Source: Folioceros fuciformis (lineage: Eukaryota). Taken from it: 64,000 nucleotides of DNA. The position numbers were made by a program, and so were the translations under genes. The stretch's first letter is position 1. Each line of letters starts with the position of its first letter. This document shows positions 602 to 49,458 of the stretch, one piece after another. The stretch is taken from positions 16,360 through 80,359 of the forward strand of contig JBNGIO010006281.1 of the NCBI GenBank assembly GCA_049999805.1, written 5' to 3'. The notes under the pieces are model-generated. The model searched no databases and was not told where the DNA came from. It saw nothing but the letters and a program-made list of their open reading frames with translations.

Positions 602-1943
602 GGGGCAAAGCAGAATGCGGGAATGACAGACTCGTACCCCAGTGGCTCCCCTGGCATTCACGCTTTTAGCGTCTGTGCCGGGCTTTACACCACACCTTGG
701 TTGCTGAGCTGAGCGAGGCTCGTACTTATCGATGAGTAGCCTTGCGGTGAGGAGGCTGCGAGGGTGGGTGAACTGTAGGCGCCCAGAGGATGGAGGTGCA
801 AGGACAGTGGAGCTACGGGGATTTGCGGAGAGAGGAACGTACTCAGAGATTCTGAGCCCTCTCTATTGCAGGACAGGCAGACTCAGGGAGACAGGCCAAG
901 TTCATTTCTGGGAGATGTCTTTTTCAGCCCATCTCCACGGGTCTGTGGACTTTCTGCCTTCTCCAACCATCACCATCACCTAACAATACCAACCCGATCG
1001 TGGAGTGTGTAGAAGAGGATTGCGTTGTACATATCTTAGCCTAACAGCTTGTGAGTAAAAGCTTGGTGGCGTCTGCCACGAGCGGCTTTTTAATAGTTGT
1101 GCTGCTTCTGCCATTTATTTTCTTCACCCGAACCCCTCTCCCATCGCCACGGATTGATCGATCTTACTGCCTTCTCCCAAAATCGGGAGAAAGGGCTCGT
1201 TGCTATGTGAGCGCCCCTGTTACGTACTCCTCTCGCACGGTAATTATCACTCGGCGCACTCATAGACTACGGTACTGTGCTCTTGCTGTGTACAATATTA
1301 TAGCTCTTACATTCCTCCCCCACACGGTAAGGTGGCTTATGGCACCCACATCCACTCCTGCGTACATAACCAGTTGGAGCACACTCGTGAGGCTGGCCAG
1401 GTCCTGACAGATCTGTCCCTGGTCCCCGCGGAGCATCTGGGCGTGGTTATCCGATTGCCCAGCCCGAGGTCGCGCGACTTCGGCTGGTGGAGTCGAAGGT
1501 TGTTGTCGTTCTCTTCTTCTTGCCACCAGCGCGGAGCTGGGATTGGATTCCCCGTTGGTGGTTGAGGGAGAAGAGAATGGTGATGTGGATGGGGATGATT
1601 GATGTATCGCTTGCTCAAGCTTGGTGCTGATGGGTTATCTGCCTGTGGCACAGGGTTGTGTCACTGAGGGTGCCCAGATCGCAGAGAGGGGGAATTGTCT
1701 CATTGCGAGATTATCTTTGAGGAGGGAGGAAGGAAGGTGTGACGAAGCTGCTGGTTGGGGTACAGCTCAACAGGCTCAGTGCACCGAAGAAGCAGTCGGC
1801 TTCGGCTTCCATCTTTCAACGATCGGTTCCCGATGGGCGTCGTGGAAGCTTGATTTTTCGGGGGACTGCGGGCCCAGGGCTTGCGGGGCCTCGGATGGCG
1901 GCTTCGCCATATTCTAGAAACGTAAATTCTTTCAGGTCCTGGC

Positions 1944-4900
1944 ATGGCCGAAGATGAGGCTCGGAGCGTGGCCGACACAGCTCCGGTAGCGGATGGACAA
2001 GATTGCGGTTTAGAGGGTTGCAGTGATCCCTTGAGGGCGGTGTCCAGTTTGGGCGTCACCGAATGTGATGGTGCTGCGGGATCCACCGGCGGGGCTGCAC
2101 CGGTTTCTTTGAGGAATCAATTCGATGAATTCGCGATCCTGAGGAGGAAGAGCTTGGAACCGCTCTGTGGCCAGCCTGTGGGCTTAGGGTTTGGTGGATT
2201 GCTGCCGTATGATAATCCACCCAGGGGGAAGGGGAATGTCGCGGGGGGGGAGGGGGGCAGGGAGTATGTCGCCTCAGCTGTCTCTCCTGAGCATGGAGGT
2301 GTGGTCATACAGAGAAGGCATATGGTGTCTGTGCAGGATGTGAAAGAAAGGAGGAGTGAGGAGGTGGAAGCTTCCGGACAGGATGTGAGAGAGAGTCGGA
2401 GGGGCAAGGAGGAAGGGTTGTCTTCGGAGGCAGAACAAGTCAATCCTGACCAGCGAGGTGCTGCTGAGATTATCGACCTGGGGTCGGTTGGAGAATCTGT
2501 TGAAGCAGGGCCGGGGCAGGGTGCATCGATCTGCGTAGCAGCAGATGAGCTTGCTTCTCCACATGAGGAATTGAGTAGTGCAGAGATTATCACCGCCAGT
2601 ATCCCTCGGAAAGGGGAGGGTGAAAATCTAGTTGCGTCCACTCTTCTGCAGGATAGGCTACGGGGATGGATAGGCAGCACTGCTCCTCTGGCCCGCGATC
2701 TCACCGTGGCCGCTGTCTCAAAGGCAAGCATAAGTTTGCCCGTGACTGTTAAGTCGTGGTGGGCAACTTCTCCATCTGGCAAGAAGGAAGCTGCGAATAC
2801 GACTCTTCAGACTCCTCAACCCAATTCTTCTCAAAACCACAAGGCCTCCGAATCACCCTTTGGGAGTCTCCTTTCCAAGGGTGCCAACCTGATCTTGAGG
2901 CCTAGTAGCTTGACAGTCCCAACAGAAAGCCTTCCCAATTCTAACTATGCTGCGCCCAGTCAACTATCACAACCAGTGGGCGGTGAGCCGGCCGAAAAGG
3001 CTGAGGAATCTGGGCGCCTTATAGCAGAGCTGAAGCAGTCTTTGAAATCTGTCCTTGGCGAAGCCGTCAAATGTGGCCCTGAACCCATGGGAGATGGAAT
3101 TTATGTCCTCACATTGTTTTGCTCACTTGTTGAACAAGCTTTTGGACACGGATTGAAGGAAAGCACCAGGGGCAGGTGGTCATTCTGGGGTGCGGGAAAG
3201 ATGCAAGTCTCATTTTTCAATCTTCTTGAAGCCATGGAGCTCTCGGTACCTGAAAACCAGTCCTTTCGTGGAGCCTTGGGACTGGATGCGGTGAGGTCGT
3301 TGACTTCGGTTAAGTCCAGCGTTGGTCAACTGCGTGCTTGGCTGCGCCTCTCCTTGAACGAAGGCTTGTTGGGTCGGAGGCTTAGCATCATACTGGAAGA
3401 TCCTGAACTTTTGGAACAGTGGTACGAAAGCTGGGCCTTACTTCGAAGAGGAGATGCGTCGGAGCAGTTTGCATCCATTGTCACAGCTCTCGACTCTGTT
3501 AGTATATCTCTCTCAGTTTCTGAAGGTCTTGCTCTTGACCAACAGAAGTCCATCGGTGTCAAGGCTTTGCATCCTCCGCAAGTTGTGGAACCTGAACAAA
3601 CAACACCAGAGTCCAAGTGGCAAGAAGCTCTGCACTATGAGCCCAAAGGCTCGGGTGCCGTTTCCTTGGATCCTGAAGGAACTAGTGAACGGCAAAACAC
3701 ACGTGGTGATATGGGTGCATTGTCAGAGAAGAAAGCCAGAGGCAACTCGAAGGCCAGGAAACGCGTGATATCCGTTCCAGATGGGTTTGCTAATGAGCAG
3801 GTTGATGCGAAGATAGAGTTTAATGGCTATAGAGTGTACACACAGCGTCCTGATCAAGAGCTGCTCGTGAATGGTTTGACAGAAGATGTCGTTCAAAGTC
3901 CTCCTGCTGAAGGTGTAGCTACGCGTTGTGAGGCAGAGGGTGCCCTGCAGAGAATTCATCCCCCGCAACAAGGGCAACAGAAAACACTCGATGAACAGGT
4001 TGTGGAGTTCCATGGAACTCTTGAGGCAAGAGATGAGGTGCCAGCTGGACGCCCGCAAGTTACATGCAGAGGCGGTCAGTATAGTCCTAGCTTACAGAGT
4101 GGGGGTGCACCAGAGGACATATGTGTACTCACTGATGATGTTGCATCCACTGGCAGGGATGTATCTTCTGTGGATGCCGATTCCTCCTTTCATCTTGAAA
4201 CAGCCTTATCAAGGTTGGGACTTCCTCCAGACCTAGATAACTCCAATATTCCCCGTGTACTATCGAATGCTGCTTTGCTTGAGTCTGAGGACGTTTTGCA
4301 TAGTGCCAGTTTTGTGGACAATCCTCTCAGTAAGCCTCGAAATGGCAGTGCATTTGCTGCACTGGAACATTGTCTGACCACACAGGCTCTCAGCGAACAA
4401 ATTGATGCTGATTGCCAAGAGAAGAAAGTCTTGGAAGTCACACCATTTTGTTGTACATCACCGGCCAGTGAAGAAAGCTGTGGATCTGATGTTGATTCGG
4501 ATATGTCAATGTCTGAAGAGGGTGGAGTGCTGGCTGAGAAGCAGAAAAACAATGTCTCCTACTTTCGAAACAGACGGATGGCTACAGCTTTTGATCTGTG
4601 CAAGAAGTACGATGATGAACTGGCCTTTGGAGCCAGCGAATGGAACGAGTACTTCCGGCAAACTGACCATCAAGTGGATTTTCCTTTACATCATTCTTCC
4701 GTTGAAACGTCTCTTGCCAAGAGATCCCCGGGTCTGAATTCATTTCATCGTCAAATTCTATCCTCTGACTCTCAGACAGAAAGTAGTGTGCATTCATGTC
4801 AAGAGAATGTTGAGCCTGTGCATGTTAGACCTGGAGAACCACTGGGCATCCAAGGAACAGGTTGGCCTTGGTTTGACTGTGAAGAGGCAGAACCAGAAAC

Positions 4901-7828
4901 TAAGGACGTGATTCAGCTGAAAGGTGTTATGGGAGGGGATCAAGCTTTGGTTGATGCAAATCGGCAAGTGTCTCAACTTATCACTTTTGAGACTGAGGTG
5001 TCTCATAGGAGAGTAGTGGAGGATTTTGGACAGGACATTCCCAGGCAAGCAGAGGATCCTCTCCAGTGTGCTGGTCGTGTCATCCCTGGCAGTGCCGACT
5101 CTGTGTCGAATCCGGATGGAATGGGGAGCCAGGATGACCAAGATGAACATCTTGATGGTGAATCTGGAGCTCATCATCAGGAAGTTGCTCCCCTCAAAAC
5201 GCACGCAGAGTCTACAGTCTCGGACATCTTCAGTGGCAATGAGCCTGAAGATGTACCTGCTAAAGCTAGACGACGATCCAATGTTTTCATTGGTCCTGCC
5301 TCGTTGGAAGGGTTTGAGTCGCATTTTTCTAGGCCCTCGGACGAAGGCAGCAGGAGACGAGGGTGTGTGGCTCGCCTGGGATCCAAGGAAGCAGAGGAGC
5401 TACTGCAACTAGATGTTGCCAAACTTGGAAGGGCCAGCTTTCAGTCGATGAAGGAGGCCACTCAAGTACAACATTCTTCATCGCTAGTGTCACCTTGGAG
5501 TTCAGAGGATCTGGGTCCAGACGAGGTTTGTTTGTGGCATCACACGTATATTTCGAGTAGTTGTAGTCTGTTTTACATTGCGTTTTGTCTGATGATGATT
5601 TCAACTCTTGTCCCAAGTCAGCTTTCACGGTATGTTGAGAAGGTGGAGGTTAAAGAGACGTATATCGACACGGTGCTTGACATGGAGAACGTTCTGCTAA
5701 CAGAAGATAGCTGCATGTTTGAAGATAATGGGTCCTCTCGCGCTATTCGGGATGGAAGCTTGTATGCCTCCACCTCAGGTTTCCTATCTTTGGGCAGGGG
5801 GCAACCAGTAGTTAGAAAGGGGAAGGAGGTGGTTTGGGTTGAAGTCATCGGAGCTCGTCAACAACGAGGGGGCGCTTCTCTTGGTGAAAGAATGGTGGGT
5901 GTACAAGAGCATACAGTGTATCGGATGCTGGTGACGGGAGTGAACAGTGAGTGGGAGGTTGAAAGGAGATACAGAGATTTTGTTGTGTTACATAGTCGGT
6001 TGGCAAGCCTGTTCCCTCCTCAGAATGGTTTTTTCCTTCCAGCTCCATGGGACAAGGTGAAGGCGGAGTCGAGAAAGTTTTTTGGAAACACCTCACCAAA
6101 TGTGGTAGAAGTGCGAAGCGCCCTCATTCAGGTGTGCTTGCAATCTTTGATCCAAGCTGGAACTCCTTTCAAAACTGCAGCGCCACTATTAGAATTTCTT
6201 GCCCCACATGATGATGCAAGTTGGCCTTCGGCGACACCAGGAAGCGTAACAGGCAGTAGTGCATCCCACCTTCCTCTAGAGGACTTTGTTACAAATTATT
6301 CAAGCTCGCCCAGATCAGATAGTACCAGTAATGTAGGAGACCTGGATCAAGACGCAAAGGGCAGCGCCGTGTTTGGGAGCACTATACGATTGATTGTGCA
6401 AGTTCATGCCGAGAAGTCTCTAAAGCAGCAGTTGCATGCACAGCACAATGCTTGTGCTGGTTGCTATGAACATCTGGTGCCAGCAACAGGGGTGGTGCCT
6501 GGCTTGGTACAAAGGTTGGGGTTGGCTGGGCCACGGCTTTGTGAATACAGTGGGCAGCTATTCTGCCCCTCGTGCCATTCCAACGATGTCTCGATTATTC
6601 CAGCTCAAGTATTGCAAAGGTGGGATTTCTCGGTGCGGAAGGTCTCCCAGCTTGCAAAGGCTTACTTAGACTCAATATATGAACAGGTAACGGGTGACAC
6701 AGCGTTTTATGCCTTGAATCATGCATCGCACAAGAGCATTCCCTGATTATCCAGAGTTCATTGACTTGGATATTGTTGAATGCAGCCCATGCTGTGCGTG
6801 AGTGCAGTCAACCCGTACCTTTATGGGAAGGTACCCATCCTGGCAAATTTGCGGGATATGCGCAGGAAGCTGAGCAGAATGATGGCCTGTGTGCATTGTC
6901 CTGCCCGCCCACGGATACTGGCAATGCTAGGATCACGACGCTACCTTGCTGAGAACAATGACTTCTTTGCACTTCGGGACTTCGCAGATATCTCAAAGGG
7001 TGCTTTCGCTGGTAAGGCAGAGTTTGTCATCACTCCTGCGTTCAAATGTGGTTGTGGTACAGACTGAATTGGCTGATGCTACTAGTTGTGGTGGACGTTT
7101 GTTGCTCCTTCTTGGTCGTCTTCTCGTACAGAAGACACCCTCCAAGCTAACACTTATTGTGTTTCTGCATCTGACAGTTTTGTTTGCTGTTTGTATTCAG
7201 TTGTCCCGGGTATCATGAAAACAGTGTGCGAAAGGGCGTACGTCCACATAACACGCGAGTGTTCTGTGTGCTATGAAACCGGCGAAGCTTGTGGTGCAGG
7301 TGAATGGTGCGATGACTTCTTCGATACCATCTTCCCATTCCAGGTACTTAGCCTTGAGACTGAGCCCCCCAAAAAAAAAACTTCAAGGTTGTGTGCTTGA
7401 GCTGTATATCCTGCAGGTTGTCCATGATAGGAAGCTGACGGGGCCTCACAATCATATAGGATGACAACATCACAAGGTGTCCTTGTTGTAAGGTTCCCTT
7501 TCACAAGTCTTGCTTCAAAAGTTGCAGCGATTGCCCATCCTGCCACGGCCAGAAACCCACGGAGGCAGCCAGTACCAGTGGATATTTCACGGAAGATTCC
7601 ACCCGGGAATGTAAAAAAAATCATTCTTCCAGGCAAACTCCTCTCACGCCATCAGTAAATGGGGAGAGCTCCAGCAACTCTGTCTCTCAAAAGCCAAGGC
7701 GGGGCAAAAGCTATCTAGACAGGGTGCTGGGGGGAAATGAAGGCAAGACCGACCCAAACCGAAGGGGAAGGCGCAGCAGCTCAGCGGTGCTACGCATGAG
7801 CTCTCTTCCAGGCCCCCTCGAGCTGTGA
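1944..7828 (+). CDS. RUN + PX + Rubicon-homology (zf-RING_9/DUF4206) domain protein, PLEKHM/Rubicon-like
   Basis: Exons approx. 1944-5525, 5622-6686, 6786-7011, 7201-7343, 7460-7828. RUN-like FCSLVEQAFGHGLK...GQLRAWLRLSLNEGLL...WYESWALLR (~3100-3510); PX WEVERRYRDFVVLH (~5830-6200); RH CAGCYEHL...RLCEYSGQLFCPSCH...WDF...CSVC...TIFPFQ...CPCCKVPFHKSC. Confidence 0.88.
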
Positions 7829-8641
7829 CAATATCCAGATACCGTCTTAGTTAAGGTGATGCATTGCTATCCTGCATGCAGTCGGTCGTCATGTGGAAAA
7901 CCTTTCTAGACGCCTTCCTACTCTGTGTACGTACATATGTAACAATGAAACATGAAGCTCGAATTGCCCCACTGAAGTTGGTTGTACCATTCCTCCAGCT
8001 ACAGCCGACATTGTCACGAGGCCTGGAAACGGCCGGAGGAGGGGCTGGTCTACAGAAAGTCATTGGACGGGGGCAACGGACTGTTACCCACGAGGGATCC
8101 CGTGCCTTGGAGGTGGGCCCCGCGGTCACGTGGCTCACTGATGCCGGCTTCTCGTCGACAGCCTTGGCGTTGAAGCGTGGGGGACCGTGAAGCTTCCCGT
8201 CTCTAGTAACGGTCAGAGTTGGAGACTTCGTGGAAAGCGGCCCTGTCTCTTTTACCGGCAGCCTTTTGGGGGACGCGAGGCTCTACGCGTTTCCAGAGGA
8301 CGCGATCAAGGCACACAAGGCAAGCCATTGTGCTATCCTCCGTCATTCTTTGCTTCTTGCTTTCTTCTCTGCAGCTGCGTTCAGGATTCGTGCTCTCCAC
8401 GCGCCATTGCCGTTTCGTAGAAGTGACACCTTGAGCGACGCTTATTGAGCTCGCGCTGCCTTGTGTGCAAGAACATTTGCCTGCCTGATTGCTCCAGATC
8501 TGCGCTGAGCTTGCTGCCGCTCGCCCGATCGGACACCAACTAGTCTGTAGTTCGTCCTGATCTGCAGAATTCCCAACGGTGTAGAGTTCACTTTCGTTAC
8601 GCAACTTTCGAATTCTGACTTGAGTGTGAGCGTTCGCTGGA

Positions 8642-9406
8642 ATGGAGAGCACGTCTGTGATGTTACAGTCCTTAGTACAAAGATTGTCGCAGCTGCTCTG
8701 GGTCGTGTGGCTCCTACCAGAGGTGGCAGTAGCTTCGGAGTCCGGAGAGGAGGCCAGGTGTCGAAGCAAAAGAGAGGGTGCAGCCAAGTGCAAGACGCTT
8801 GAGAGATTTTACTCTGCTCGCGACTTGTTGGAGCCTGAGGAATTCACTCCCACGATCCAACGATCGCCGAGCGGGTCGACCGAGAGCCAACTTTTGCGAT
8901 TTCCGAATGGAAGTTTGGTGAGCGAGCAGGAAATTTACAGAATATTTCGGACGGTGGATGACGAGGGGAACGGCACGGTGTCGAGGGACAAGCTGGCGAG
9001 CTTCATCACGAAGCTGCAGAAGGTAGAGTGCAGTGAGGACCAGATCGACTCCCTATTGCAGTTGGCGGGTGTCGAGCACAAGGGATTTGTGGAGTTTGAG
9101 GAGTTTGTGAGGCTGTATCACTGTTTGCTAGAAAGCTGTCAGGAATGTGACGACATCCGCCCTGCTCGGAAAGACAATGACAGCGACGAAGGCCGCCTCC
9201 GCGATGCTTTTAACGTTTTTGACAAGAACAAGGATGGCTTCATTAGCCCCGAGGAACTGCATCTCGTTGTCAAGTGCCTCAATTTGCCAAAGAAGATCAC
9301 CGAATGCAGTAGGATGATCATGGCCGTGGACAGGGATGGAGATGGTCGGGTCGACTTCGAGGAGTTCAAGCACATGATGTTGTCGACCTCTTCCCGTTTC
9401 CTATGA
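8642..9406 (+). CDS. Calmodulin-like (CML) EF-hand calcium-binding protein, single exon
   Basis: Four EF-hand positions; canonical loops DKNKDGFISPEE and DRDGDGRVDFEE, with LRDAFNVFD before EF3. Confidence 0.9.
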   Translation: MESTSVMLQSLVQRLSQLLWVVWLLPEVAVASESGEEARCRSKREGAAKCKTLERFYSARDLLEPEEFTPTIQRSPSGSTESQLLRFPNGSLVSEQEIYRIFRTVDDEGNGTVSRDKLASFITKLQKVECSEDQIDSLLQLAGVEHKGFVEFEEFVRLYHCLLESCQECDDIRPARKDNDSDEGRLRDAFNVFDKNKDGFISPEELHLVVKCLNLPKKITECSRMIMAVDRDGDGRVDFEEFKHMMLSTSSRFL

Positions 9407-10290: not shown

Positions 10291-12196
10291 ATCTGCCCAT
10301 CAGGTTAGAGCAGTATGCGCACTCGCACCACTGGTACAGATACTTAGGTAGCATCGTGTCCGTCCCGGAATGAAAAAGATGTGCTCTGCTGGTCGGTGAT
10401 GGATGTGGCAACCTTGCTGAAGCCAAGGATGGGATGATGAAGAGCCGCGTCGCATCAAACGTAGAGACCACAACCTGTTAGTACTCTCACACGGCACCAC
10501 ATGGCCCTATCGCATGAAGCAGCCGAAACGTGGGAAGCTTCACGAACATGTTCGTCTGTAAAGATAGAGTCAGGGCAACCGCGGAGTCAGCCAACCGGCG
10601 CAGGCGGCACCTACACCACTAGGTTTTCGAAGGCGGCAACGTGTCTGTGCTAGCAAAAAATAGACACCACAGCTGGCTGGCCACTAGCCCTGATACCCGA
10701 CTCCCTAGGAACCAACAGAAGAGCATTTCGAGAAGAACGGCTGATGACCTGTCCAAAACTCTGGTCGGGTGAGCATCCCTCGACGAAAGACTCAGCTGCA
10801 ATGCAACCGACTTTTCATCTTGCCCCACATCCGTTCCCCTTGCCCTTTGGACTGCATCCCGTAACGGTAATAAAAAGTGGAACATACAGCTCTCATTCCT
10901 GTGTCATCCTTCATCAAACATCCACCACGTTCTTCTCGTCTCAAACCATGAAATCACGTAATTCCCAGCCTCCGCTCCGCACATGATGCAGAATATCCCC
11001 GGGCCCCGACCATCGCATCCACCTGACGGGAAATCAGGTTCTGGCCATCACAGCACGTACCGCAAGCAAGGCTCCCGGCAACTTTGCCCTAGTCCTGGCC
11101 CTGGCCCGGCCAGTGCCTCCCCTTCCTACCCGCATCTGCAGCTGAATGCGCAGCTGAAGTTCAGCTGCAGCTTCTGCGCACGTGGTGAAACTCAAACTAA
11201 CAGGACGATAAAAACTGCTGATAGTTGGAGAAAGTCAGAATCCAGCACGCTTTACTACCGCAGTGACCAGGAGCGTGGGCGTGCGAGAGGCGGGAGCAGG
11301 GGACGCTTGCGCGAAATTGTGGCGGATGGAGTCAAGGGAGCGCAGCCGAGAGGCGTCTGGCACGTTGGCTGGCCGGGCCTTGACTACATGTAGAGAGTTC
11401 ACAAGGGCGGCCCACGCTGCATTCTAGTTCAGCGGCCTCATACACATATCGTTTTCCTGGCCTACCAGCTCTCGCAACAGCGGCCGCCTCCACCAACCAC
11501 TCCTGCCTCTTTCTTGAAGGCCGTCGACCTGGGCCTGCCTCCTGTATCTGCGAATCGCAGCAGGAGAGGGATGCTCAGTCGCGCCTGCTGCAGCTACCCA
11601 GAGAAGAGACGGAGAAGACGGCGCCTCTGTTGCGGGCATCCCAGATTGTTGTGGCCTTGAATGGTTTGCGCTTGATGCTCACAGAATTTTAGTCCTGGAT
11701 CCGCGGATTGGTTGATGCTTCTGGAGGGCTGTGCTGCTTCTGCTGCTGGTTGCGACGCGCAGGTGCTGCTGCTGGTGCTGGAGATGCCCGCCTTTTGAAG
11801 CGCATCTTCCAATGCTGTACACTGCACATACTGCGTAATGCTGCGCCAGCTGCGTGCCGCTTGCAATTGGGTAGCAGGGCGGGGGTTGAGGATTCCGGGA
11901 TGAATCGGCTGCGTTTTCCTCGTCAGGGTCTCTAGGTTTCATATGCAGTCTATGCGCGCAGGGTGTTGGCGCCTGGATGCCTGCAGCGCTAGATCCTGCC
12001 GTGTTGCCTTTCCTGCTGCAGCCTGGCGTGTGGATTTCTCGATTTCTGGGGCTGGGTTTGGGATCGGTCGGGGTCGGGGCTCTTATCTGCTCGTAAGAGA
12101 AGCGACAGGGCAGGGTAGGAAGGAAGTTCTGGAGGCACGAGTCGGTGCCACAACGCGCTGGATGATTCGCAGGAGGAGGCGTAGTGGAGGTGGAGC

Positions 12197-15100
12197 ATGG
12201 CAACTCAGCCTTCGAAGGCTCAACAAGTTGCGGAGAAGAGGCGGAAACTCAAGGCGCAGTATGCAGGGGGAAATGACATTCAGTCCGGGGCACAGGGACA
12301 GGCTAGGGACTCTGCTTCTCATGATGCGAACCAGACGAGTGGGAGCGGACAGCTGAGTGAGCAGGAGCTTCCGGATATCGCCTCTGCTGAACAAGACAAG
12401 GCCAGGAGAGTTTTGTTCATCAACGACGCAAAGAAAACCTTCGATGAGTGTGCGCGCGCTGAGTATGCGCACGCAGGGAATGTCGTGCGAACTAGCAAGT
12501 ATACGTTCCTCACGTTCCTTCCTCGGAACCTCTTCGAGCAGTTCCATCGTGTTGCGTACCTGTACTTTCTGGTGATTGTGATTCTAAATCAGTTTCCGCA
12601 GCTGGCTGTTTTCGGAAGAACAGCGTCAATTTTCCCACTTGCGTTTGTCCTCGTTGTCACTGCCTTGAAAGATGGATATGAGGATTTTGGTCGCCATCGG
12701 TCCGATAGGAAGGAGAACAACAGACTGGCTTATGCGTTTTCGGATGGTGAATTCAGATTGAAAAAGTGGAAGTCGATACGAGTTGGAGAGGTGCTCAAAA
12801 TTTATGAGAAAGAGACTGTGCCTTGTGACGTGGCGTTGCTTGGCACCAGCGATCCCAGTGGGGTTGCGTATATTGAAACACTGAACTTGGATGGGGAGTC
12901 GAACTTGAAAAGCAGGTATGCCAGACAAGAGACTGTTTCCAAAATGCAAAACGTGGCTTCTCTGGCAGGGACCCTTACATTTGAGCATCCCAATAGGAAT
13001 ATTTATGGGTTCACTGCTTACATGGATTTGGATGGAGTGCAGCTCCCCCTTGGTCCCAACAACATGGTTCTTCGTGGCTGTGAAGTTAAGAACACATCCT
13101 GGATTATTGGAGTGGTCGTGTATGCTGGCCAAGAAACTAAAGCGATGCTCAACAGCTCAGGGGCTCAGTCGAAAAGAAGTCGGCTGGAGAAGCAGATGAA
13201 TCGAGAGATAGCTTATCTGGCTGTATTTTTGATCCTTACATCTTTGGTAGGAGGCATTGGAATGGGGTTTTGGGTCAAGAGCCGAAGTGACGACCTTGAT
13301 ATCATCCCGTATTATATTAAGACCAATCCCAGGACTCAGAAACCGTATCACTTTTATGGGCAGGTTGGCGAAGCGATTTTCGGTTTCTTAGGTTGTGTCA
13401 TAACATTTCAAGTTATGGTTCCCATATCTCTGTATATCTCAATGGAGCTCGTTCGTCTAGGGCAATCATATTTCATGACTGAAGACGCGGATATGTACCA
13501 TGCTCAGACAAACAGTCCATTCCAAGCTCGGGCCCTGAACATTAACGAGGATCTGGGGCAAATCAAGTTTCTCTTCTCTGATAAGACTGGCACTCTGACA
13601 GAAAACAAAATGGAGTTCCAAACCGCCAGCATCAGTGGAGTGGATTATGCCAATGCAACATTGTTCTCTGAATCTGCACTCCTTGACGAGGGGTCCCAAG
13701 AACAAAGCGGTATTTCCTCTGGTATAATTCTGTCCAGTTATCTGATTGCCTCGTCTTACTGCAGCCCATGTTTGCACTAGTGTGCCCACTTCACTTGAAA
13801 ATCTGAGAGACTCATGCGTTTACATTTCATGTGTATCGTTCTTGCCATTGTGTCTGTTCTGTACCTTGGCTGATAGATGTTTGATTGGTTTCCTTCCTTC
13901 AACTCTCAAAATTGTCGATAAGAGGATATGTCTTCATCTTTGTGTTACAGGTAGTGGCAGCAAGCGAACGTGGAGGCCAAGATTAGGTTCAAAGTTGGAC
14001 CCAAGGCTTGTTAGCTTGTTACAGTCCCAAGCTGACACAGTAGAACGAAGAGAAGCTCATGACTTCATGTTGGCGCTGACTGCTTGCAATACGGTTGTTC
14101 CCGACTCAACTGCGGAACAGCTGGAGGCTGCTGCAGCTGGTGATGTCTCTGGAGCTATGAAGTATCAAGCTGAATCCCCGGATGAGCACGCTTTGGTGTC
14201 TGCTGCTGCTCAGTATGGATATGTTCTCCTGGAGCGTAGCTCAGAGCATCTGCTTATTAGTGTATTAGGAAGTATACAAAGGTAACACCTGCACCGTGTT
14301 TGCTGTGTTCATCTGATGGCTGACTCCTATTTTAGTGTTTTTAACCTTCATTTGTATAGGATGGCGTATGATGGCAGTGCAATTTCTTGCTGTGCAGGTT
14401 TGCTGTGTTGGGAGTACATGAGTTTGATAGTGTCCGGAAGCGCATGTCAGTGGTTTTAAAGTGTCCTGATGGGACAGTGAAGGTTTTTGTGAAGGGTGCA
14501 GATACAGAGGTCTTAGAGCAAATAGCTGTCCAGTCCATGTCGAACCAGGGTATGAGCAATGACAGTGCATCAAAGTACCGGACCGAGGTTATGCTTTCCA
14601 CTTTGAGTCATCTAGATGGCTATGCCAGGGAAGGGTTGAGAACACTCGTGGTTGCTGTAAGACAGTTAGACGAAGATGAGGTTGCAACCTGGCAGTTGGC
14701 TCACTCGAAAGCCAGTATTTCACTGAGAAATCGAGTGAGTATGATGCGTTCTGCTGCAGAATTGGTGGAGAGAAACTTGACTCTGCTCGGGGCTACTGGC
14801 ATAGAGGATAAACTCCAGGATGGTGTCCCAGAAACTATAGCTTCCCTTCGAGAAGCTGGCATTAAGGTTTGGGTGTTGACAGGAGACAAGCAGGAGACAG
14901 CGATCTCCATTGCTTTTTCGTGTCTACTTCTGACTAGGGAAATGGAGCAAATCATCGTCAATGAATCAACCAAAGAGGGTTGTCGCGATGCATTATTACA
15001 GGCAAGAATCAAACACAGGCCTAGACAGCAGGAGGTGTCCAAGGCCAAGAGGAAACACCGCTCTGCAGCGAGTGAACATGCAGCTGGTTCACCTAATGCA

Positions 15101-16716
15101 GCTGATGACGTTCTTGATGTGAATGAGTCTGAGCATCACAGGACTAGAGAGTCAACGAGGCTGCCTCTCGCGCTTATCATTGATGGGAACAGCCTTGTAC
15201 ATGCTCTAGGTGAAGAACTGGAGAAGGAGGTGCTCGCCTGGAAATTCTTTGTATTTTGGTTGTTTGGATTCTGCTTTGGTGGTGTGCTGACTCCCACACG
15301 TTATTTGGGCCTGCAGCTGGTGGAGCTGGCGCTGTTATGTGAAGTAGTTTTATGTTGCAGAGTTGCTCCATTGCAAAAAGCTGGGTTAGTTTCACTAGTC
15401 AAGAAGTCAACTAACGAGCTCACTCTAGCAGTTGGTGATGGTAAGTCCTTTTGCTTGAGGATTCAAATTTTCTGATTCTCTTAATGCAGCAGGTAATCAT
15501 CCTGAGCCTTGACCAGCCTTCTTTTCTCACAGACAACCTTGTCTGCCTGTTCTTGAAGGTGCCAACGATGTCTCAATGATACAAGTGGCAGATGTTGGGG
15601 TAGGCATTACTGGCCAGGAGGGAAGACAAGCTGTTATGGCATCTGATTTTGCCATTGGGCAGTTTAGGTTTTTGAAGAAACTCCTCTTGGTTCATGGGCA
15701 CTGGAATTATCACCGACTTGGCTATATGGTGCTCTACAACTTTTACCGTAATGCTGTCTTTGTGATGTTGCTCTTCTGGTGAGTTTACTAAATCTGCACA
15801 GTAGGTGTTAGTGTGCTGTCGAAGGACTAGAAACTTTTGTTGTTTGAGGAACGGGGTAATGAGACCGTGTGCTGTTTGACAGGTACATTCTGTACACAGC
15901 GTTTTCCCCGTCACCAGCTCTGACGGACTGGAATCTTGTTTTTTATTCATTAATATATACCTCGGTGCCCACCATAGTTGCTGGCATACTGGACAAGGAT
16001 ATCAGCAAGGAAACTTTGATGGCCTATCCCCCCTTGTATGGTCCAGGTCAGAGGGGGGAAGCTTACAACAGAGTCCTGTTTTGGGCCTCGATGCTTGACA
16101 CGTTTTGGCAAAGTCTGGTTCTCTTCTATGTAGCCTTTTTCACATTCAATGCTAGCCTGGTGGAAATCTGGAGCTTGGGAGAATTGTGGACCGTTGGTGT
16201 GGTTGTACTCGTGACGTTGCAGCTTGCATTGCATATACGGACATGGACGTGGATTCACCATGTCGCCTTATGGGGCTCTGTGCTTGCCACATTTATTTGT
16301 CTTTTTGTCATGGATGCGTGGGTTCTGGAGAGTCTACTCTACCATTACTGGTAAGGTCTCTTCCTACCTCAGCTTTCCTGATGATGACCATTTTGTGACA
16401 ATTCTGATAAGACAGAAGTTCGAAAATCGGCCTTACAATCATCGTCATAGTTAGCTCATACGCTCTTTTGACGTGAAATCTGTGCAGGTCTATATACCAT
16501 ATAATTTTCACAGCTCCATTCTGGTTGGACATCTTCCTCATGTTGGCTTTGGCGCTGCTCCCTCACTTCTTCGTCCTGGTAGTACAACAGCGGTTTTGGC
16601 CGTCCGACATCGACATTGGCCGTGAGCTCGAAAGTCGGAGGAGCACTGTGGACAGGGCTTCCGTCGTCGAGCTAAATGAAGTCCCTCACGTGGATCGGGG
16701 ACAGACGGATGCTTAA
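12197..16716 (+). CDS. ALA1: Phospholipid-transporting P4-ATPase (flippase), ALA1-like, multi-exon
   Basis: [48 protein letters not shown], phosphorylation motif [41 protein letters not shown] introns join the ORF pieces. Confidence 0.95.
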
Positions 16717-22744: not shown

Positions 22745-24535
22745 TCACCTTGCTTGCACTCCGACAGGACGGGTGAGCAGCTGGTGCAACAAAATTCCAG
22801 CCGCGACACTCACATTCAAGCTATCTACAGCGGCTGCAGGTCTCAGCAAGGATTCCACTTCTGGCTTCCTGTCCCTCGGCACTACTTCATGGTTCTCGTC
22901 GATCCTCAAAGTCTGCGGAAAGGAAATGTCCGAGCTTGGTGCACCAACGATCCGAACGGTCTCAGTGCAAGCCCGCCGCACGTTCGTTCTGAGGCCCTTC
23001 CCCTCGTTCCCCAGCACAAGGATGGTGGGCACAGCAGGGGGAAGATCCCACACCGATCGTGCTCGCGGATCGGCCGAGGCACCCACGGCTTGCCACCCGT
23101 TCTGCACGGATCGGTCCAGAAACCGTACCATGTTCTTGCAGCACTGCACCTCCATCACCTCCAGCGCACCTGCGCTCGCCTTGCTGACGACTCCACTCAA
23201 GGGAGCCGAATTCTTGGCACACACCACCACGCCATCCGCACCCAAGAAAAATGCAGACCTCAGGATAGCCCCGAAGTTCTGTGGGTCCATGATCTCGTCC
23301 AGAGCCACCCAGACAGGTGCCCTGCCACCTTCCTGCAGCTCCGGCCGCTCCAACCCCTCTATTAACACCAGCTCCAGAGGTGACGCATCCAGGACCAGCC
23401 CTTGGTGAGGTCTGTTCTCCACCAGAAGATTGAGGTTGTGCTTGGACGTTACCACCGTCTGCAAGCCCATGCTCTTGGCAGCATTCAGCACCCACGCAAC
23501 TGCTGCCTTGTCCTTCCTCTTCCCCGTGGCCAGCTTCTCCTCCATCCCCACCTGCACATAGAGCGTGTGAAATTTCCTCCGGCAAGCCTGCAGAGAAGCC
23601 TGGATCGGATTCACACCGTACACTGCCTCGCCCACGGCCTTCAATGAGTTGCTCTGCTCTGTATACTCCGTCCGGTACCCCCGCCCTCGTGGTGCCCTCC
23701 TCTCCCCTTCTTCCACTTCCTCCTCCTCTTCCATGTCCTCGTCCCCATCCTCATCATCATCGTCCCAGCTTGTAGCTACCTTCCCAGAAGGAGGTCTCCA
23801 TTGGTCTCTCCGAACAGAGGACTTGCCTAAGCTACGCCGGCTACCTGCTTTCAGGACACGGCCATCCTCAACACCTTCCCTGTCCGAAGATCCTAGATCA
23901 CCCCATTCCCTTGCTGCAAATGCCACATTGTCCATCACCTGACCCTCTCCATCCCTCCGGCGCTGGTACGAAGCCGTGGCCTCTCCACGCTTCTCCTGAA
24001 CACTCCTATCCTCTCCCCGCCTGAACCTACTGCTGCTGTGTGCCCCATTGCTGCGATCCGTATTCCAGCTCGCAGCACCTTCCTTTTTGTCTACACCTGG
24101 ACCCTGCCCAGCTCTTGCCTTCGCCAGAACCTGCTTCCAGCTCTGTGACATGCCTCGTTTAGGAGGAAAGCGGGCAGACTCTTGCTGCACTGGGCCCTGG
24201 TCGCCAGTTCCTCCGGAGAAGTACGCATCTGCAGCCTCGTCCCACGTGCTAGTTCCGCGGTCGCTGGCCTGCCTGCAAACGACATTCTGCGATCTGGGCC
24301 TCCTTTCCCATTTCCGCAAAGAAGTTGCCAACCTGAATCCCACAGCTCCACGGTTAGCCTCCTGCAAACCCCGCAAACTTCCCAACGCCTTGCCAGAGCA
24401 CACTCCAGCAGACTCCAGGTGCGGCATAGCATTCATCCACGAAGTCGGCACCCGACGGTAACGCAGGGAGGAGAGAGCCCGCACCATCCCAACCGATGGT
24501 GCCAAGGAGCATGCTAACCTAACCTTGACATCCAT
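22745..24535 (-). CDS. SpoU/TrmH-family rRNA 2'-O-methyltransferase (organellar, MRM1/RlmB-like), single exon
   Basis: VYGVNPI, NRPHQGLVL, ALDEIMDPQNFGAILRSA, VSKASAGALE, LVLGNEGKGLR, DSLNVSVAAGILL; long N-terminal targeting/low-complexity extension. Confidence 0.92.
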   Translation of the reverse strand: MDVKVRLACSLAPSVGMVRALSSLRYRRVPTSWMNAMPHLESAGVCSGKALGSLRGLQEANRGAVGFRLATSLRKWERRPRSQNVVCRQASDRGTSTWDEAADAYFSGGTGDQGPVQQESARFPPKRGMSQSWKQVLAKARAGQGPGVDKKEGAASWNTDRSNGAHSSSRFRRGEDRSVQEKRGEATASYQRRRDGEGQVMDNVAFAAREWGDLGSSDREGVEDGRVLKAGSRRSLGKSSVRRDQWRPPSGKVATSWDDDDEDGDEDMEEEEEVEEGERRAPRGRGYRTEYTEQSNSLKAVGEAVYGVNPIQASLQACRRKFHTLYVQVGMEEKLATGKRKDKAAVAWVLNAAKSMGLQTVVTSKHNLNLLVENRPHQGLVLDASPLELVLIEGLERPELQEGGRAPVWVALDEIMDPQNFGAILRSAFFLGADGVVVCAKNSAPLSGVVSKASAGALEVMEVQCCKNMVRFLDRSVQNGWQAVGASADPRARSVWDLPPAVPTILVLGNEGKGLRTNVRRACTETVRIVGAPSSDISFPQTLRIDENHEVVPRDRKPEVESLLRPAAAVDSLNVSVAAGILLHQLLTRPVGVQAR

Positions 24536-24602
24536 CAGCACCTTAGCCCTTGTAACAGAGCCTGGCTTGGCGCATGTGAGTCAGCGCTCGTCCTCAGGAT
24601 CC

Positions 24603-26784: not shown

Positions 26785-27297
26785 ACTCCAGTGGACATTG
26801 TCTCGTCCCAAGAAGAAGGACGTCTTCAATCGAATCTACCTATGAAAATCTATCATTTTAGTGAGGAAAACTGCCGCCCTTTTTGTTGTTGGATGCTAGC
26901 AATACGTGATCGGATCCATCACCACTCGCAAGACCAGCGAGCCCCGCCCCTGCACTTCATAACAGGGGTAATTGACCTGAGTTGCCGTCACCCTTTGGAT
27001 TGCCCCCTGTTACCAAATACCTAGGACTTCAAAAGGATTAGGGTTGCACTGCCTGGCCAGCCTTAGAATCGTACGGGGAATGGCAGATGCTCCCGGGTTT
27101 CTGCCTGGAGGATCAGAGCAGTCAGTGATGCCTAGGGGGATGACGCGTAGCTATGTGATAGTGAATGCCAACTTTTCTGCCATTTTGGACTGGCTGTGGC
27201 CACCTTGCCTGCCTCCACACGACAAGCTCAAAGCAATGGTTGTGCTGTCTCCAGGCAGGCGCTTTTGGTCCCTCCCTAATCTGCAGTACCTGCTGCC

Positions 27298-45540: not shown

Positions 45541-46100
45541 TCTTCCTCAACATGTTGTGGGGAAGAGCGACAGGAAGAGAGAGCAGAGAGAGAGAGTGCC
45601 TGGGGCCCGGAGTCACAGAACGAGGCGTCAATCACCGTCCCGCTCGAGTATTTTCAGCCTGAGGCGTGATTGATGCGACTCTCAATCTCACCGCCCTCCC
45701 AATGGCCCCTGCCTTGCTTCTCCTGCCTTTCGTTCCGATTGCGGTGGTCGTGGTGGGGGAATAGCGTAGCTGTGTGTTTGTGTGAGGGACCTGGAGCGGG
45801 ATCTGTTCCCGGCGGCTGCTCAATTGGTGGCCCTTTGTGATGACCGTCTGTCTATGCGAGCTTTTTTGCTGCGCGGGATGGAGGCCGAGGAGAGCGGTCG
45901 CAGGGAGGTGGAGTGCTTCAGCGACAAACTGTTGATTTGCTTGAGAGGGCAGGGTTTGGGGAGGAGGTGAATGGCAGGAGGCGGGAGGGCGGGGCGGAGA
46001 TGTTTGGAGGAGGTGCGGCGGTAGGAGGAGGAGGAGAGTCCCGGGGGTTGATGTTTTTGTTGTTGTTGTTGTTGTATCCGGATCGGTATCCGCAACTGCA

Positions 46101-48941: not shown

Positions 48942-49458
48942 CTTCTTCCTCCTCCTCCTCCTCCAATTCTTCCCGCACTCTCGCAACAGACCCCGATGCC
49001 GCGCACCATGACAGGCTAGCCGATTCGTCCTCCGGGTGCGAGACGCTGTCCCGCGGCTCCTTTACCCTGCCGCGTGCTGCACTTGTTGGCGCCCTCCGCG
49101 ATCGGCATTCCTCCGCAGGCATCGGGAAGCTATGTATATCCATACCAATATCCATATACATGTAGACAAAGGACATCAGTTGACACCATAAATGTCCTGT
49201 TACTCGGGCGGAAGAAAGAGCGGCCGGCTGTGTGAAAGCGGCTGGGGTTCTCATGAAATGCGCCACTCATAAGGCCTTACGACCATGGCAGTCCTGTGCC
49301 ACAGCTAGCGATCTGCAAACGTCGCCCCGTGCTAGGCCACGGGATGCCAGGCATCGTCTGAACTTGGCAATTGGGATTGCTCTTTGTTTCTTTCTTGGAA
49401 ACTCTTGAGTCTTGCGCGAACTGCATCGAATCCGAAGACTGGGCGTGAAGCTCCGAGG

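What the first reader, a model, noticed from the sequence alone, without database searches (positions are those of the whole stretch)
1944..7828. Plant Rubicon/PLEKHM1-like protein that carries an N-terminal RUN domain (RUN-PX-RH)
Seen: one transcript unit encodes a RUN-like block (LVEQAFGHGLK, GQLRAWLRLSLNEG, WYESWALLR; ~3100-3510), a long disordered linker, a PX domain and a C-terminal Rubicon-homology zinc domain. Established: animal Rubicon and PLEKHM1 pair RUN with the Rab7-binding RH domain and control autophagosome/endosome-lysosome fusion. As I recall, angiosperm PX-RH homologs lack RUN, and RUN domains are scarcely described in plants. Inference: this may be an ancestral small-GTPase/PI3P/RAB7 effector bridging module retained in a non-seed plant.
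Basis: partly seen in the sequence, partly recalled or inferred. Interest (0 to 1): 0.75.

Follow-up and report, generated by a model that had tools for sequence, protein, structure and literature searches.

The report
Bryophyte RUN-PX-Rubicon-homology trafficking adaptor gene
This is a real, spliced gene of a moss-grade land plant whose protein joins a small-GTPase-binding RUN domain to the lipid-binding PX and Rab7-binding Rubicon-homology domains, a front end that the same gene lacks in flowering plants and the other named plants examined.

Summary
Window 1944-7828 (+) is one five-exon gene for a 1794-aa protein. It carries Pfam RUN (E 7.8e-23), PX (7.6e-9) and a Rubicon-homology (RH) domain colinear over four exons. 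A 5246-nt contig of run X1 covers 2231-7976 with all four GT..AG introns removed, so RUN, PX and RH sit on one spliced molecule. An AlphaFold model of the RUN part matches only RUN domains.

The gene is the orthologue of the widespread, undescribed land-plant PX-RH protein. Of 120 listed homologues only one unnamed relative has RUN. Pfam, a custom HMM, profile-profile comparison and a model of a Brassica orthologue find no RUN remnant in 119 liverwort, moss, fern, lycophyte, gymnosperm and angiosperm proteins. A second, moss-like lineage does have RUN plus PX-RH.

Most likely this is an ancestral Rubicon/PLEKHM1-like adaptor (small GTPase, PI3P, RAB7) kept in a probable hornwort and an early-diverging moss lineage and trimmed elsewhere. 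Binding and function are untested. It is a new variant of a known kind, of moderate interest.

The parts
1652..1943 (+). transcribed 5' leader with two short upstream ORFs (ATG 1833, 6 codons; ATG 1895, 20 codons, overlapping the main ATG)
   Evidence: X1 contig 2 lies unspliced on 1652-2134. The upstream ORFs were read from the sequence.
1944..5525 (+). coding exon 1 (1194 codons): about 390 residues with no Pfam match, then RUN, then a long linker
   Evidence: ORF; joint at 5525/5622 in X1 contig 4; bookkeeping.
3117..3521 (+). RUN domain (aa 392-526)
   Evidence: Pfam PF02759, E 7.8e-23. Best PDB sequence match is the PLEKHM1 RUN domain 8jc5_C, E 1.4e-11. AF2 model pLDDT 82; the Foldseek top 10 are all RUN domains.
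4623..4655 (+). conserved acidic tryptophan motif in the linker (AFG-x2-E-W-x-E-Y type)
   Evidence: A regex finds it at residue 894 here and in 89 of 119 orthologues. Its function is unknown.
5526..5621 (+). intron 1, 96 nt, in frame and stop-free
   Evidence: GT..AG joint in X1 contig 4. Homologues skip query residues 1195-1221. The intron sits at the same position in moss-like locus L001.
5622..6686 (+). coding exon 2: PX domain and first part of RH
5934..6203 (+). PX domain
   Evidence: Pfam PF00787, E 7.6e-9. PDB sequence matches are the PX domains of nischarin, SGK3 and SNX16.
6534..7546 (+). Rubicon-homology (RH) zinc domain, split by introns 2-4
   Evidence: Pfam PF13901 pieces are colinear at 1-52, 52-130, 134-171 and 173-202 of 206. 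Best PDB match is the human Rubicon RH domain 6wcw_A, E 3.8e-9 for exon 2 alone.
6687..6785 (+). intron 2, 99 nt
   Evidence: GT..AG joint in the X1 and X2 contigs.
6786..7011 (+). coding exon 3
7012..7200 (+). intron 3, 189 nt
   Evidence: GT..AG joint in the X1 and X2 contigs.
7201..7343 (+). coding exon 4
7344..7459 (+). intron 4, 116 nt
   Evidence: GT..AG joint in the X1 and X2 contigs.
7460..7828 (+). coding exon 5 with stop codon at 7826-7828
7829..7976 (+). 3' untranslated region, as far as the contig reaches
   Evidence: X1 contig 4 ends at 7976.

Best explanation
The gene encodes a 1794-aa cytosolic adaptor of the late endosome / autophagosome-to-vacuole route. It is the orthologue, in a bryophyte (probably a hornwort), of the single-family land-plant PX-RH protein. 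It still carries the N-terminal RUN domain that Rubicon and PLEKHM1 have in animals. Inferred mechanism: the C-terminal RH zinc domain binds GTP-loaded RAB7 (plant RABG3), the PX domain binds PI3P, and the RUN domain binds a second small GTPase (ARL8-type or a Rab). A long disordered linker with conserved short motifs connects them. The protein could thus act as a coincidence detector or tether between two membranes or two GTPase states. RUN is most likely the old state of this gene. It has been removed from the N-terminus in the annotated orthologues of Bryopsida mosses, liverworts and vascular plants. Shown here: gene structure, splicing, the three domains, the RUN fold, orthology, and absence of RUN from 119 named orthologues. 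Inferred: every binding partner, the cellular role and the direction of change.
For: - **Domains and colinearity:**
- **One molecule:** a single spliced contig with 3 mismatches in 5246 nt covers RUN to the 3' UTR.
- **RUN fold:** the Foldseek top 10 are all RUN domains at E<=6.8e-4, and the next hit is at E 2.3. The best PDB sequence match is the PLEKHM1 RUN domain, crystallised with Arl8b.
- **RH domain:** the best match is the Rubicon RH domain of entry 6wcw. Direct RH-Rab7 binding is reported by Tabata et al. 2010 (PMC2993745; abstract and section headings seen).
- **Orthology:** 43-61% identity to plant PX-RH proteins, and a gene tree that mirrors plant phylogeny, with window+P0002 (100/99) inside a bryophyte clade (98/96).
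- **RUN absent elsewhere:** 1 of 120 listed homologues has RUN. 35 of 36 have no RUN at E<=1. The custom HMM's best E is 1.1 over 119 proteins. hhalign probability is <=0.2% for five plant groups against 98% for three independent controls. Residues 1-413 of the Brassica model have no secondary structure.
- **A second RUN-bearing lineage:** ORF P0122/P0271 has RUN at 54-191. Its residues 447-762 overlap loci L001/L002 at 95-98%, and these run on into PX and a complete RH. L002 is sister to Ceratodon+Physcomitrium (100/99).
- **RUN+RH is common outside plants:** 23 of 84 RUN hits scanned.
Against: - No binding or localisation was tested, and no partner sequence from this organism was available.
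- The PI3P-binding residues of PX and the Rab7-contact residues of RH were judged only by eye or by alignment to one structure.
- No streptophyte-alga protein with RUN-PX-RH turned up. The nearest named RUN relative is a Cymbomonas (green alga) protein in which Pfam finds only RUN. The ancestral state below land plants is therefore unknown.
- Under bryophyte monophyly, one gain plus two losses costs as many events as three losses.
- Genomes of the RUN-less bryophytes could not be searched, so an unannotated upstream RUN exon in liverworts or Bryopsida is not excluded.
- Run X1 is only guessed to be RNA. That its contig is a transcript rests on the four missing introns.
- The hornwort assignment is by elimination on one gene tree.
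Confidence: 0.7

Rival explanations
1. RUN was added to a RUN-less PX-RH gene within bryophytes (domain gain by exon capture) and is not ancestral to land plants.
For: All 119 named orthologues lack RUN, including liverworts, lycophyte, ferns and seed plants. No algal RUN-PX-RH was found among the hits examined. With monophyletic bryophytes, one gain plus two losses equals three losses in event count.
Against: RUN is paired with RH in 23 of 84 scanned RUN proteins from other eukaryotes. The closest solved RUN is that of PLEKHM1, itself an RH protein. RUN lies in the same giant first exon as the linker in three unnamed lineages (P0002, P0122/P0123, P0124), so no trace of a captured exon remains.
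Confidence: 0.2
2. RUN-PX-RH is universal in plants, and the RUN-less orthologues are truncated gene models or carry a RUN diverged beyond recognition.
For: Some bryophyte models are visibly incomplete: Marchantia polymorpha P0004 and Adiantum P0014 stop after RH position 52. Moss models P0005 and P0007 start exactly where P0122 is at residue ~448-459. I could not search any plant genome.
Against: In the 74-row alignment Met1 and an N-terminal acidic/serine block are nearly invariant, so the angiosperm starts agree with each other. Profile-profile probability is <=0.2% for all five groups against 98% for controls. Residues 1-413 of the Brassica model have pLDDT 27-44 and no helix. The exact 971-aa Physcomitrium protein is on record from 235 contigs.
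Confidence: 0.07
3. The RUN part and the PX-RH part are made as separate proteins here (internal promoter or two genes), so the three-domain protein is an artefact of a long open frame.
For: Contigs cannot show transcript starts, and isoforms starting inside exon 1 cannot be excluded.
Against: There is no stop in 1606 codons. One contig bridges RUN, linker, PX and RH with introns removed. The same continuous frame from RUN to the first intron is seen in P0002, P0122 and P0123.
Confidence: 0.03

Closest known systems
Human PLEKHM1 (RUN - PH - PH - C1 - RH adaptor of lysosome fusion)
   Same: N-terminal RUN and C-terminal RH. Its RUN domain is the best solved-structure sequence match to the window's RUN (8jc5_C, E 1.4e-11; 31% identity in the Foldseek alignment). 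That entry shows RUN bound to GTP-Arl8b (entry title). RH binds Rab7 (PMC2993745).
   Different: Pfam finds no PH or C1 domain here even at E<=1; a PX domain sits before RH instead. No LC3/ATG8-interacting motif has been shown. There is about 770 residues of linker between RUN and PX.
Human Rubicon (RUBCN; RUN - coiled coil - RH)
   Same: RUN at the front and RH at the end. Rubicon's RH (6wcw_A) is the best solved match to the plant RH: E 4.2e-23 for the moss-like orthologue L002 and 3.8e-9 for window exon 2. The CxxC...C...CxxCH pattern aligns.
   Different: The window protein has a PX domain. Nothing here shows the Beclin 1 / PI3-kinase-binding middle region that Rubicon needs for its function (abstract of PMC2993745).
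Land-plant PX-RH proteins (annotated 'PX domain-containing protein', 'PLEKHM3-like' or 'DEF8-like' in Marchantia, Physcomitrium, Selaginella, Ginkgo, Amborella, Brassica etc.)
   Same: Orthologous: 43-61% identity over PX plus the start of RH, a gene tree that follows the plant tree, a shared pre-PX block and linker motif, and the same first two intron positions as moss-like L001.
   Different: They lack RUN by every test used, and their N-termini begin downstream of where RUN lies. I found no functional paper on them.
RUN-PX proteins of other eukaryotes (the SNX29 type; that name is recalled, not from a call)
   Same: RUN at the N-terminus and a PX domain downstream. 7 of 84 scanned RUN hits have this pair.
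   Different: They have no RH domain. None of the 84 has all three domains.
Unnamed relatives P0002 (Logan contig) and P0122/P0271 with loci L001/L002 (metagenome contigs)
   Same: P0002 has RUN, PX and the start of RH in one frame. It shares 62% (RUN) and 61% (PX-RH) identity with the window and is its sister on the tree. The P0122 lineage has RUN plus, by a 95-98% overlap, PX and a full RH.
   Different: Their N-terminal extensions before RUN are shorter (RUN starts at residue 107 and 54, against 392 here). The organisms are not named.

Membership tests
RUN domain (Pfam PF02759) | Sequence match above the curated threshold over the whole domain | tested here: met
   81.5 bits against a cut-off of 22; profile 2-130 of 131.
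RUN domain (Pfam PF02759) | All-helical RUN fold | tested here: met
   AF2 model has pLDDT 82 and pTM 0.77. The Foldseek top 10 PDB hits are all RUN domains (Rab6IP1, RUSC2, RPIPx, PLEKHM1, SKIP, NESCA, FYCO1) with TM 0.58-0.69; the next hit is at E 2.3.
RUN domain (Pfam PF02759) | Binds a GTP-loaded small GTPase (Arl8, Rab or Rap) | not testable with these tools
   No partner sequence of this organism was at hand, and no complex job was sent.
PX domain (Pfam PF00787) | Sequence match above the curated threshold | tested here: met
   36.4 bits against 21.6; profile 3-82 of 84. PDB sequence matches are PX domains.
PX domain (Pfam PF00787) | PI3P-binding basic residues (the R-R-Y ... K ... R signature; motif recalled) | tested here: inconclusive
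   RRYRDF and a later conserved Arg are visible in the translation, but no residue-level comparison to a PI3P-bound structure was made.
Rubicon-homology domain (Pfam PF13901) | Sequence match above threshold, complete and colinear | tested here: met
   The exon pieces score 56.7, 38.5, 23.5 and 11.8 bits at profile positions 1-52, 52-130, 134-171 and 173-202. The first two each exceed the 28.1 cut-off on their own.
Rubicon-homology domain (Pfam PF13901) | Zinc-binding Cys/His clusters | tested here: met
   The first clusters align with Rubicon 6wcw_A. The later ones align in orthologue L002, and the same Cys pattern is visible in window exons 4-5.
Rubicon-homology domain (Pfam PF13901) | Binds GTP-Rab7 | not testable with these tools
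   Known for Rubicon and PLEKHM1 (PMC2993745); not tested for any plant protein.
PLEKHM1 orthologue | Two PH domains and a C1 domain between RUN and RH | tested here: not met
   No PH or C1 hit at E<=1.
Rubicon orthologue | [quoted passage not shown] | not tested
   Pfam has no hit for it and no comparison of the linker with Rubicon was made. The linker shows no Pfam family.
Land-plant PX-RH orthogroup | PX followed by RH, grouping with plant proteins in a tree | tested here: met
   inside the bryophyte clade (98/96), with highest identity 61% to Marchantia.

The most novel reading that the evidence does not exclude
The one RH-domain family that I found in land plants descends from a Rubicon/PLEKHM1-like RUN...RH protein of the eukaryotic ancestor that acquired a PX domain. 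Hornworts and early-diverging mosses keep the full three-input form (second GTPase + PI3P + RAB7), while liverworts, Bryopsida and vascular plants each cut off the RUN input. If so, plants do have a PLEKHM1/Rubicon counterpart for vacuole fusion or its restraint. Its GTPase hand-over step could then be dissected by comparing natural RUN-plus and RUN-minus versions in transformable bryophytes.
Probability: 0.45. Interest if true: 0.65.

Novelty: new variant of a known kind. Interest (0 to 1): 0.5.

Why it matters
Animal cells use the RH-domain proteins Rubicon, PLEKHM1 and Pacer to decide whether Rab7-positive endosomes and autophagosomes fuse with lysosomes. My searches of the held library found no description of a plant counterpart, although PX-RH proteins are annotated in every land-plant group sampled.

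A RUN domain on the bryophyte orthologue ties the plant family more firmly to Rubicon/PLEKHM1. It also suggests a second GTPase input, such as ARL8. Natural RUN-plus and RUN-minus versions would give a ready comparison for asking what that input does. Hornwort and moss transformation methods exist (PMC8717380, title and abstract seen in a search listing), so the question can be tested.

The finding is a domain-architecture variant, not a new kind of system. The gene is probably already present, undescribed, in genome annotations.

Tried and rejected
- **Word-index searches.** The RUN-part search found only P0002 among near-length proteins. Among shorter proteins it found only two non-plant RUN+RH proteins, one annotated PLEKHM1 of a thrips and one unnamed. 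It missed P0122-P0127, which the full HMMER scan found, so these blanks say little.
- **Metagenome scans.** The first scan, with alignment A1, matched 23 stretches but confirmed none. The second, with P0271, gave L001 and L002.
- **Own genome.** None is held for this window, so other RUN genes and the ARL8/RABG3 partners could not be looked up.
- **Sequencing runs.** No RNA holder is listed. X3 and X4 laid nothing. Positions 2135-2230 are not covered by any contig; a G-rich tract lies at about 2222-2262.
- **ESM Atlas.** It returned only generic RUN clusters.
- **Earlier findings of the scan.** Nothing by place, words or sequence.
- **Literature.** An Arabidopsis locus code I recalled for the orthologue gave 0 papers, so I do not cite it. 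(any 2 of several terms) listed only unrelated papers. The passages on PLEKHM1 or Rubicon in three plant papers were reference-list or introduction mentions of the animal proteins. PMC12582063 mentions RUN only in the name of PLEKHM1.
- **Canonical ATG8-interacting motif.** A regex for an acidic [WFY]xx[LIV] motif in the linker gave no match.
- **Complex prediction.** No job was sent, because no plant GTPase sequence could be supplied.
- **RUN-domain tree.** A tree to decide between RH-type and PX-type RUN relatives was considered and dropped as too weakly informative.

Full report
**1. What is in the sequence.**
The + strand holds a stop-free frame of 1606 codons from 1926 to 6746. At the window's stop-triplet frequency of 0.037, the chance of such a frame is about 8e-27. 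The first in-frame ATG is at 1944, directly after a TAA.

Pfam finds three families in this frame at E<=1:
- RUN at aa 392-526: E 7.8e-23, 81.5 bits against a cut-off of 22, profile 2-130 of 131.
- PX: E 7.6e-9.
- The first 52 positions of the Rubicon-homology domain RH_dom: E 4.1e-15.

Three short downstream frames continue RH_dom colinearly at profile positions 52-130, 134-171 and 173-202 of 206. No PH, C1, FYVE or other family appears.

**2. Gene model and expression.**
From the sequence I placed GT..AG introns at 6687-6785, 7012-7200 and 7344-7459. Homologues skip query residues 1195-1221, which pointed to a fourth, in-frame intron of 96 nt at 5526-5621.

Laying the contigs of four coded public runs on 1500-8300 confirmed all four. 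A 5246-nt contig of run X1 has 3 mismatches and lies on 2231-7976 with exactly these four stretches skipped, all GT..AG. A 1897-nt contig of run X2, from a related organism (134 other letters and 3 gaps over its 1,870 laid bases), shows the last three joints. Another X1 contig lies unspliced on 1652-2134.

The run kinds are only guessed to be RNA. A contig that lacks four canonical introns present in the genomic window is best read as a spliced transcript. A processed DNA copy is the unlikely alternative.

Joining the five exons by coordinates gives 5385 nt, that is 1794 codons plus one terminal stop. RUN, the ~770-residue linker, PX and RH are therefore one reading frame on one assembled molecule.

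Two things remain open:
- Positions 2135-2230 are not covered. A G-rich tract lies at about 2222-2262.
- The start may be Met1 (1944) or Met126 (2319).

**3. The RUN domain is real.**
- By sequence, the best solved structure is the PLEKHM1 RUN domain (8jc5_C, E 1.4e-11). Rab6IP1, RUFY3, RPIPx and PLEKHM2/SKIP follow.
- An AlphaFold2 model of nt 3060-3560, built with a 25-row alignment, has mean pLDDT 82 and pTM 0.77.
- Its ten best Foldseek matches in the PDB are all RUN domains (E 1.9e-6 to 6.8e-4, TM 0.58-0.69). The eleventh has E 2.3.

For the other two domains:
- The RH part is closest to the human Rubicon RH domain, 6wcw_A. E is 3.8e-9 for window exon 2 alone and 4.2e-23 for the uninterrupted orthologue L002, and the cysteine/histidine clusters align.
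- The PX part matches the PX domains of nischarin, SGK3 and SNX16.

**4. Whose gene is it.**
A search with the PX-to-RH part found 234 proteins at E<=0.001. The 120 listed are PX-RH proteins, and every one that carries a name is from a land plant. They include Riccia, Marchantia, Calypogeia, Ceratodon, Physcomitrium, Selaginella, Ceratopteris, Adiantum, Ginkgo, conifers and many angiosperms, at 43-61% identity.

A maximum-likelihood tree of 26 rows follows the plant phylogeny:
- Seed plants, ferns and a bryophyte clade (98/96) are recovered.
- Within bryophytes there are liverworts, mosses, and a third pair formed by the window and the unnamed Logan protein P0002 (100/99).

By elimination the window is probably from a hornwort. 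This is an inference from one gene tree. A PLS-class PPR gene with an E motif (27283-29904) fits a land plant. No whole genome is held.

**5. RUN is missing from the named orthologues.**
- Only P0002 among the 120 listed proteins carries a precomputed RUN hit.
- My own Pfam scan of 36 representatives at E<=1 found RUN in P0002 alone.
- phmmer with the RUN part against all 120 gave P0002 at E 1.1e-72 and nothing else below E 0.2.
- An HMM built from seven plant-type RUN domains scored no better than E 1.1 on the 119 others.
- hhalign compared that RUN profile with alignments of the first 250 and 450 residues of five groups: liverworts (6), mosses (2), ferns/lycophyte (4), gymnosperms (9) and angiosperms (95). 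Probabilities were <=0.2%.
- Three independent RUN proteins used as controls (P0142, P0143, P0128) gave 98%. A fourth control, P0126, was part of the profile and does not count.
- An AlphaFold2 model of the 941-aa Brassica orthologue, built with 74 aligned orthologues, folds the PX and RH parts. Residues 1-413 have pLDDT 27-44 and no secondary-structure element.

In the alignment the angiosperm N-termini agree with each other, and Met1 and an acidic/serine block are nearly invariant. The absence is therefore real at the protein-model level.

For liverworts and Bryopsida mosses I could not search genomes, so an unannotated upstream exon is not excluded. The exact 971-aa Physcomitrium protein is, however, on record from 235 contigs.

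**6. RUN is not unique to this organism.**
A full HMMER scan of 1.84 billion representatives with the RUN part found 274 proteins at E<=0.001, of which 12 at <=1e-10. The closest hits are:
- P0002, 62% identity.
- P0123 (54%) and P0122 (53%; a cluster of 14 members).
- P0124 (45%), P0127 (43%) and P0125 (42%).
- A Cymbomonas 'RUN domain-containing protein' (37%), in which Pfam finds RUN only.
- An Acanthamoeba protein.

P0122, P0123 and P0124 are single open frames that begin with RUN. The end of P0122 aligns with the end of window exon 1 (query 678-752 to residues 1132-1196). Its residues 448-758 align colinearly with residues 7-387 and 10-368 of the moss proteins from Ceratodon and Physcomitrium.

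Two metagenome loci overlap residues 447-762 of cluster member P0271 at 95-98%:
- L001 is genomic. It has introns at the same two positions as the window's introns 1 and 2.
- L002 is intron-free. It runs as one 922-aa frame through linker, PX and a complete RH to a C-terminus like the window's.

On the tree L002 is sister to Ceratodon+Physcomitrium (100/99). A moss-like lineage outside those two genera therefore also has RUN-PX-RH, shown by overlap rather than on one contig. The annotated Bryopsida proteins start about 450 residues into the equivalent frame. P0124, P0125 and P0127 represent a third, unplaced RUN-bearing lineage. Its linker carries the family's tryptophan motif and shows weak similarity to Riccia proteins.

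**7. The architecture among RUN proteins at large.**
I scanned 84 of the 150 listed RUN hits with Pfam: all 25 of P0122-P0146, and 59 of the 64 later hits of 500 aa or more. Five long and 60 short ones were not scanned. The result:
- 23 have RUN+RH.
- 7 have RUN+PX.
- None has RUN, PX and RH together.

Among everything examined, the three-domain form is therefore confined to this plant family.

**8. How it most likely works.**
Established for the animal relatives:
- RH domains of Rubicon and PLEKHM1 bind Rab7 directly, and their function depends on GTP-Rab7 binding (PMC2993745; abstract and section headings seen).
- RUN domains of PLEKHM1 and SKIP have been crystallised with GTP-Arl8b (PDB entry titles).
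- Arl8-GTP binds SKIP (PMC3240744; abstract start seen in a listing).
- From general knowledge, PX domains with the basic signature bind PI3P.

By homology I infer a long, largely disordered adaptor that reads three marks of late endosomal, autophagosomal or vacuolar membranes:
- RAB7/RABG3-GTP through RH.
- PI3P through PX.
- A second GTPase through RUN.

It would tether these membranes or gate their fusion. Orthologues without RUN would keep only the PI3P and RAB7 inputs. None of this was tested.

The linker carries conserved short motifs that may recruit further partners. One is a pre-PX block shared down to gymnosperms. Another is an AFG-xx-[DE]-W-x-[DE]-[FY] motif found in 89 of 119 orthologues. 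A canonical acidic ATG8-interacting motif was not found by a simple pattern.

**9. Direction of change.**
Retention of an old RUN...RH pairing is favoured for three reasons:
- RUN+RH is frequent outside plants.
- RUN lies in the same giant exon as the linker in all RUN-bearing lineages.
- Two separate bryophyte clades have it.

On a tree with monophyletic bryophytes, however, one gain plus two losses costs the same three events as three losses. I saw no algal PX-RH or RUN-PX-RH protein. I put retention at about 0.7-0.75 and gain at about 0.2.

**10. Is it known.**
None listed a paper that describes a plant RH-domain or plant RUN-domain protein:
- 'Rubicon homology' + plant gave 7 papers, all on animal systems.
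- DUF4206 gave 1 unrelated paper.
- 'RUN domain' + 'land plants' gave 1 paper, on myosins.
- 'RUN domain' + plants gave 61 papers, none of the 25 listed on plant proteins.
- The PLEKHM1/Arabidopsis/RABG3 search and the Rubicon/PLEKHM1/DEF8/plants search gave only citations of animal work in the passages read.

The library omits most subscription journals, and no supplements were read. The domain combination is probably visible in public annotation of bryophyte genomes.

**Verdict.** I rate this a new variant of a known kind. It is solidly documented and functionally untested, with interest of about 0.5.

Noticed in passing
window 5526-5621: Intron 1 is 96 nt, in frame and free of stops, so a retained-intron transcript would add 32 residues just before the PX domain without breaking the frame. 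P0002 shows an insert of similar size at the same place relative to its orthologues.
   Followed up: partly
window 4623-4655 and orthologues: A short acidic tryptophan motif (AFG-xx-[DE]-W-x-[DE]-[FY]) in the disordered linker is present in 89 of 119 plant PX-RH orthologues and in P0123; P0124 carries a near variant (GFG..DWDEY). It may be a docking motif; its partner is unknown.
   Followed up: partly
alignment A3, N-termini of seed-plant orthologues: Where bryophyte forms have RUN, seed-plant proteins begin with a conserved serine/acidic block (consensus ...YSSCGESEFERYCSANS..GTPS...) that is predicted to be disordered. It could be a replacement regulatory or docking segment.
   Followed up: no
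window 1833-1853 and 1895-1957: There are two short upstream ORFs in the transcribed leader. The second overlaps the main ATG at 1944 in another frame.
   Followed up: no
window 2222-2262: A G-rich low-complexity tract lies in the coding region. It overlaps the end of the only stretch (2135-2230) that no X1 contig covers.
   Followed up: no
window 27283-29904 (+): An intron-free 874-codon frame encodes a PLS-class pentatricopeptide-repeat protein with an E motif, the type linked to organelle RNA editing in land plants.
   Followed up: no
window 45948-47657 (+): An open frame combines an MSP (major sperm protein / VAP-type) domain with a long ankyrin-repeat array.
   Followed up: no
window 8633-9403 (+), 12188-15472 (+), 22748-24577 (-), 49339-50781 (+): Neighbouring genes by Pfam are an EF-hand protein, a P4-type phospholipid-flipping ATPase (several exons), a SpoU-type RNA 2'-O-methyltransferase and a ThiF-family E1-like enzyme. 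None is an obvious partner of the RUN-PX-RH gene.
   Followed up: no
proteins P0004 (Marchantia polymorpha) and P0014 (Adiantum): These public gene models stop after RH profile position 52, the exon boundary seen in the window. They look truncated at the first RH intron.
   Followed up: no
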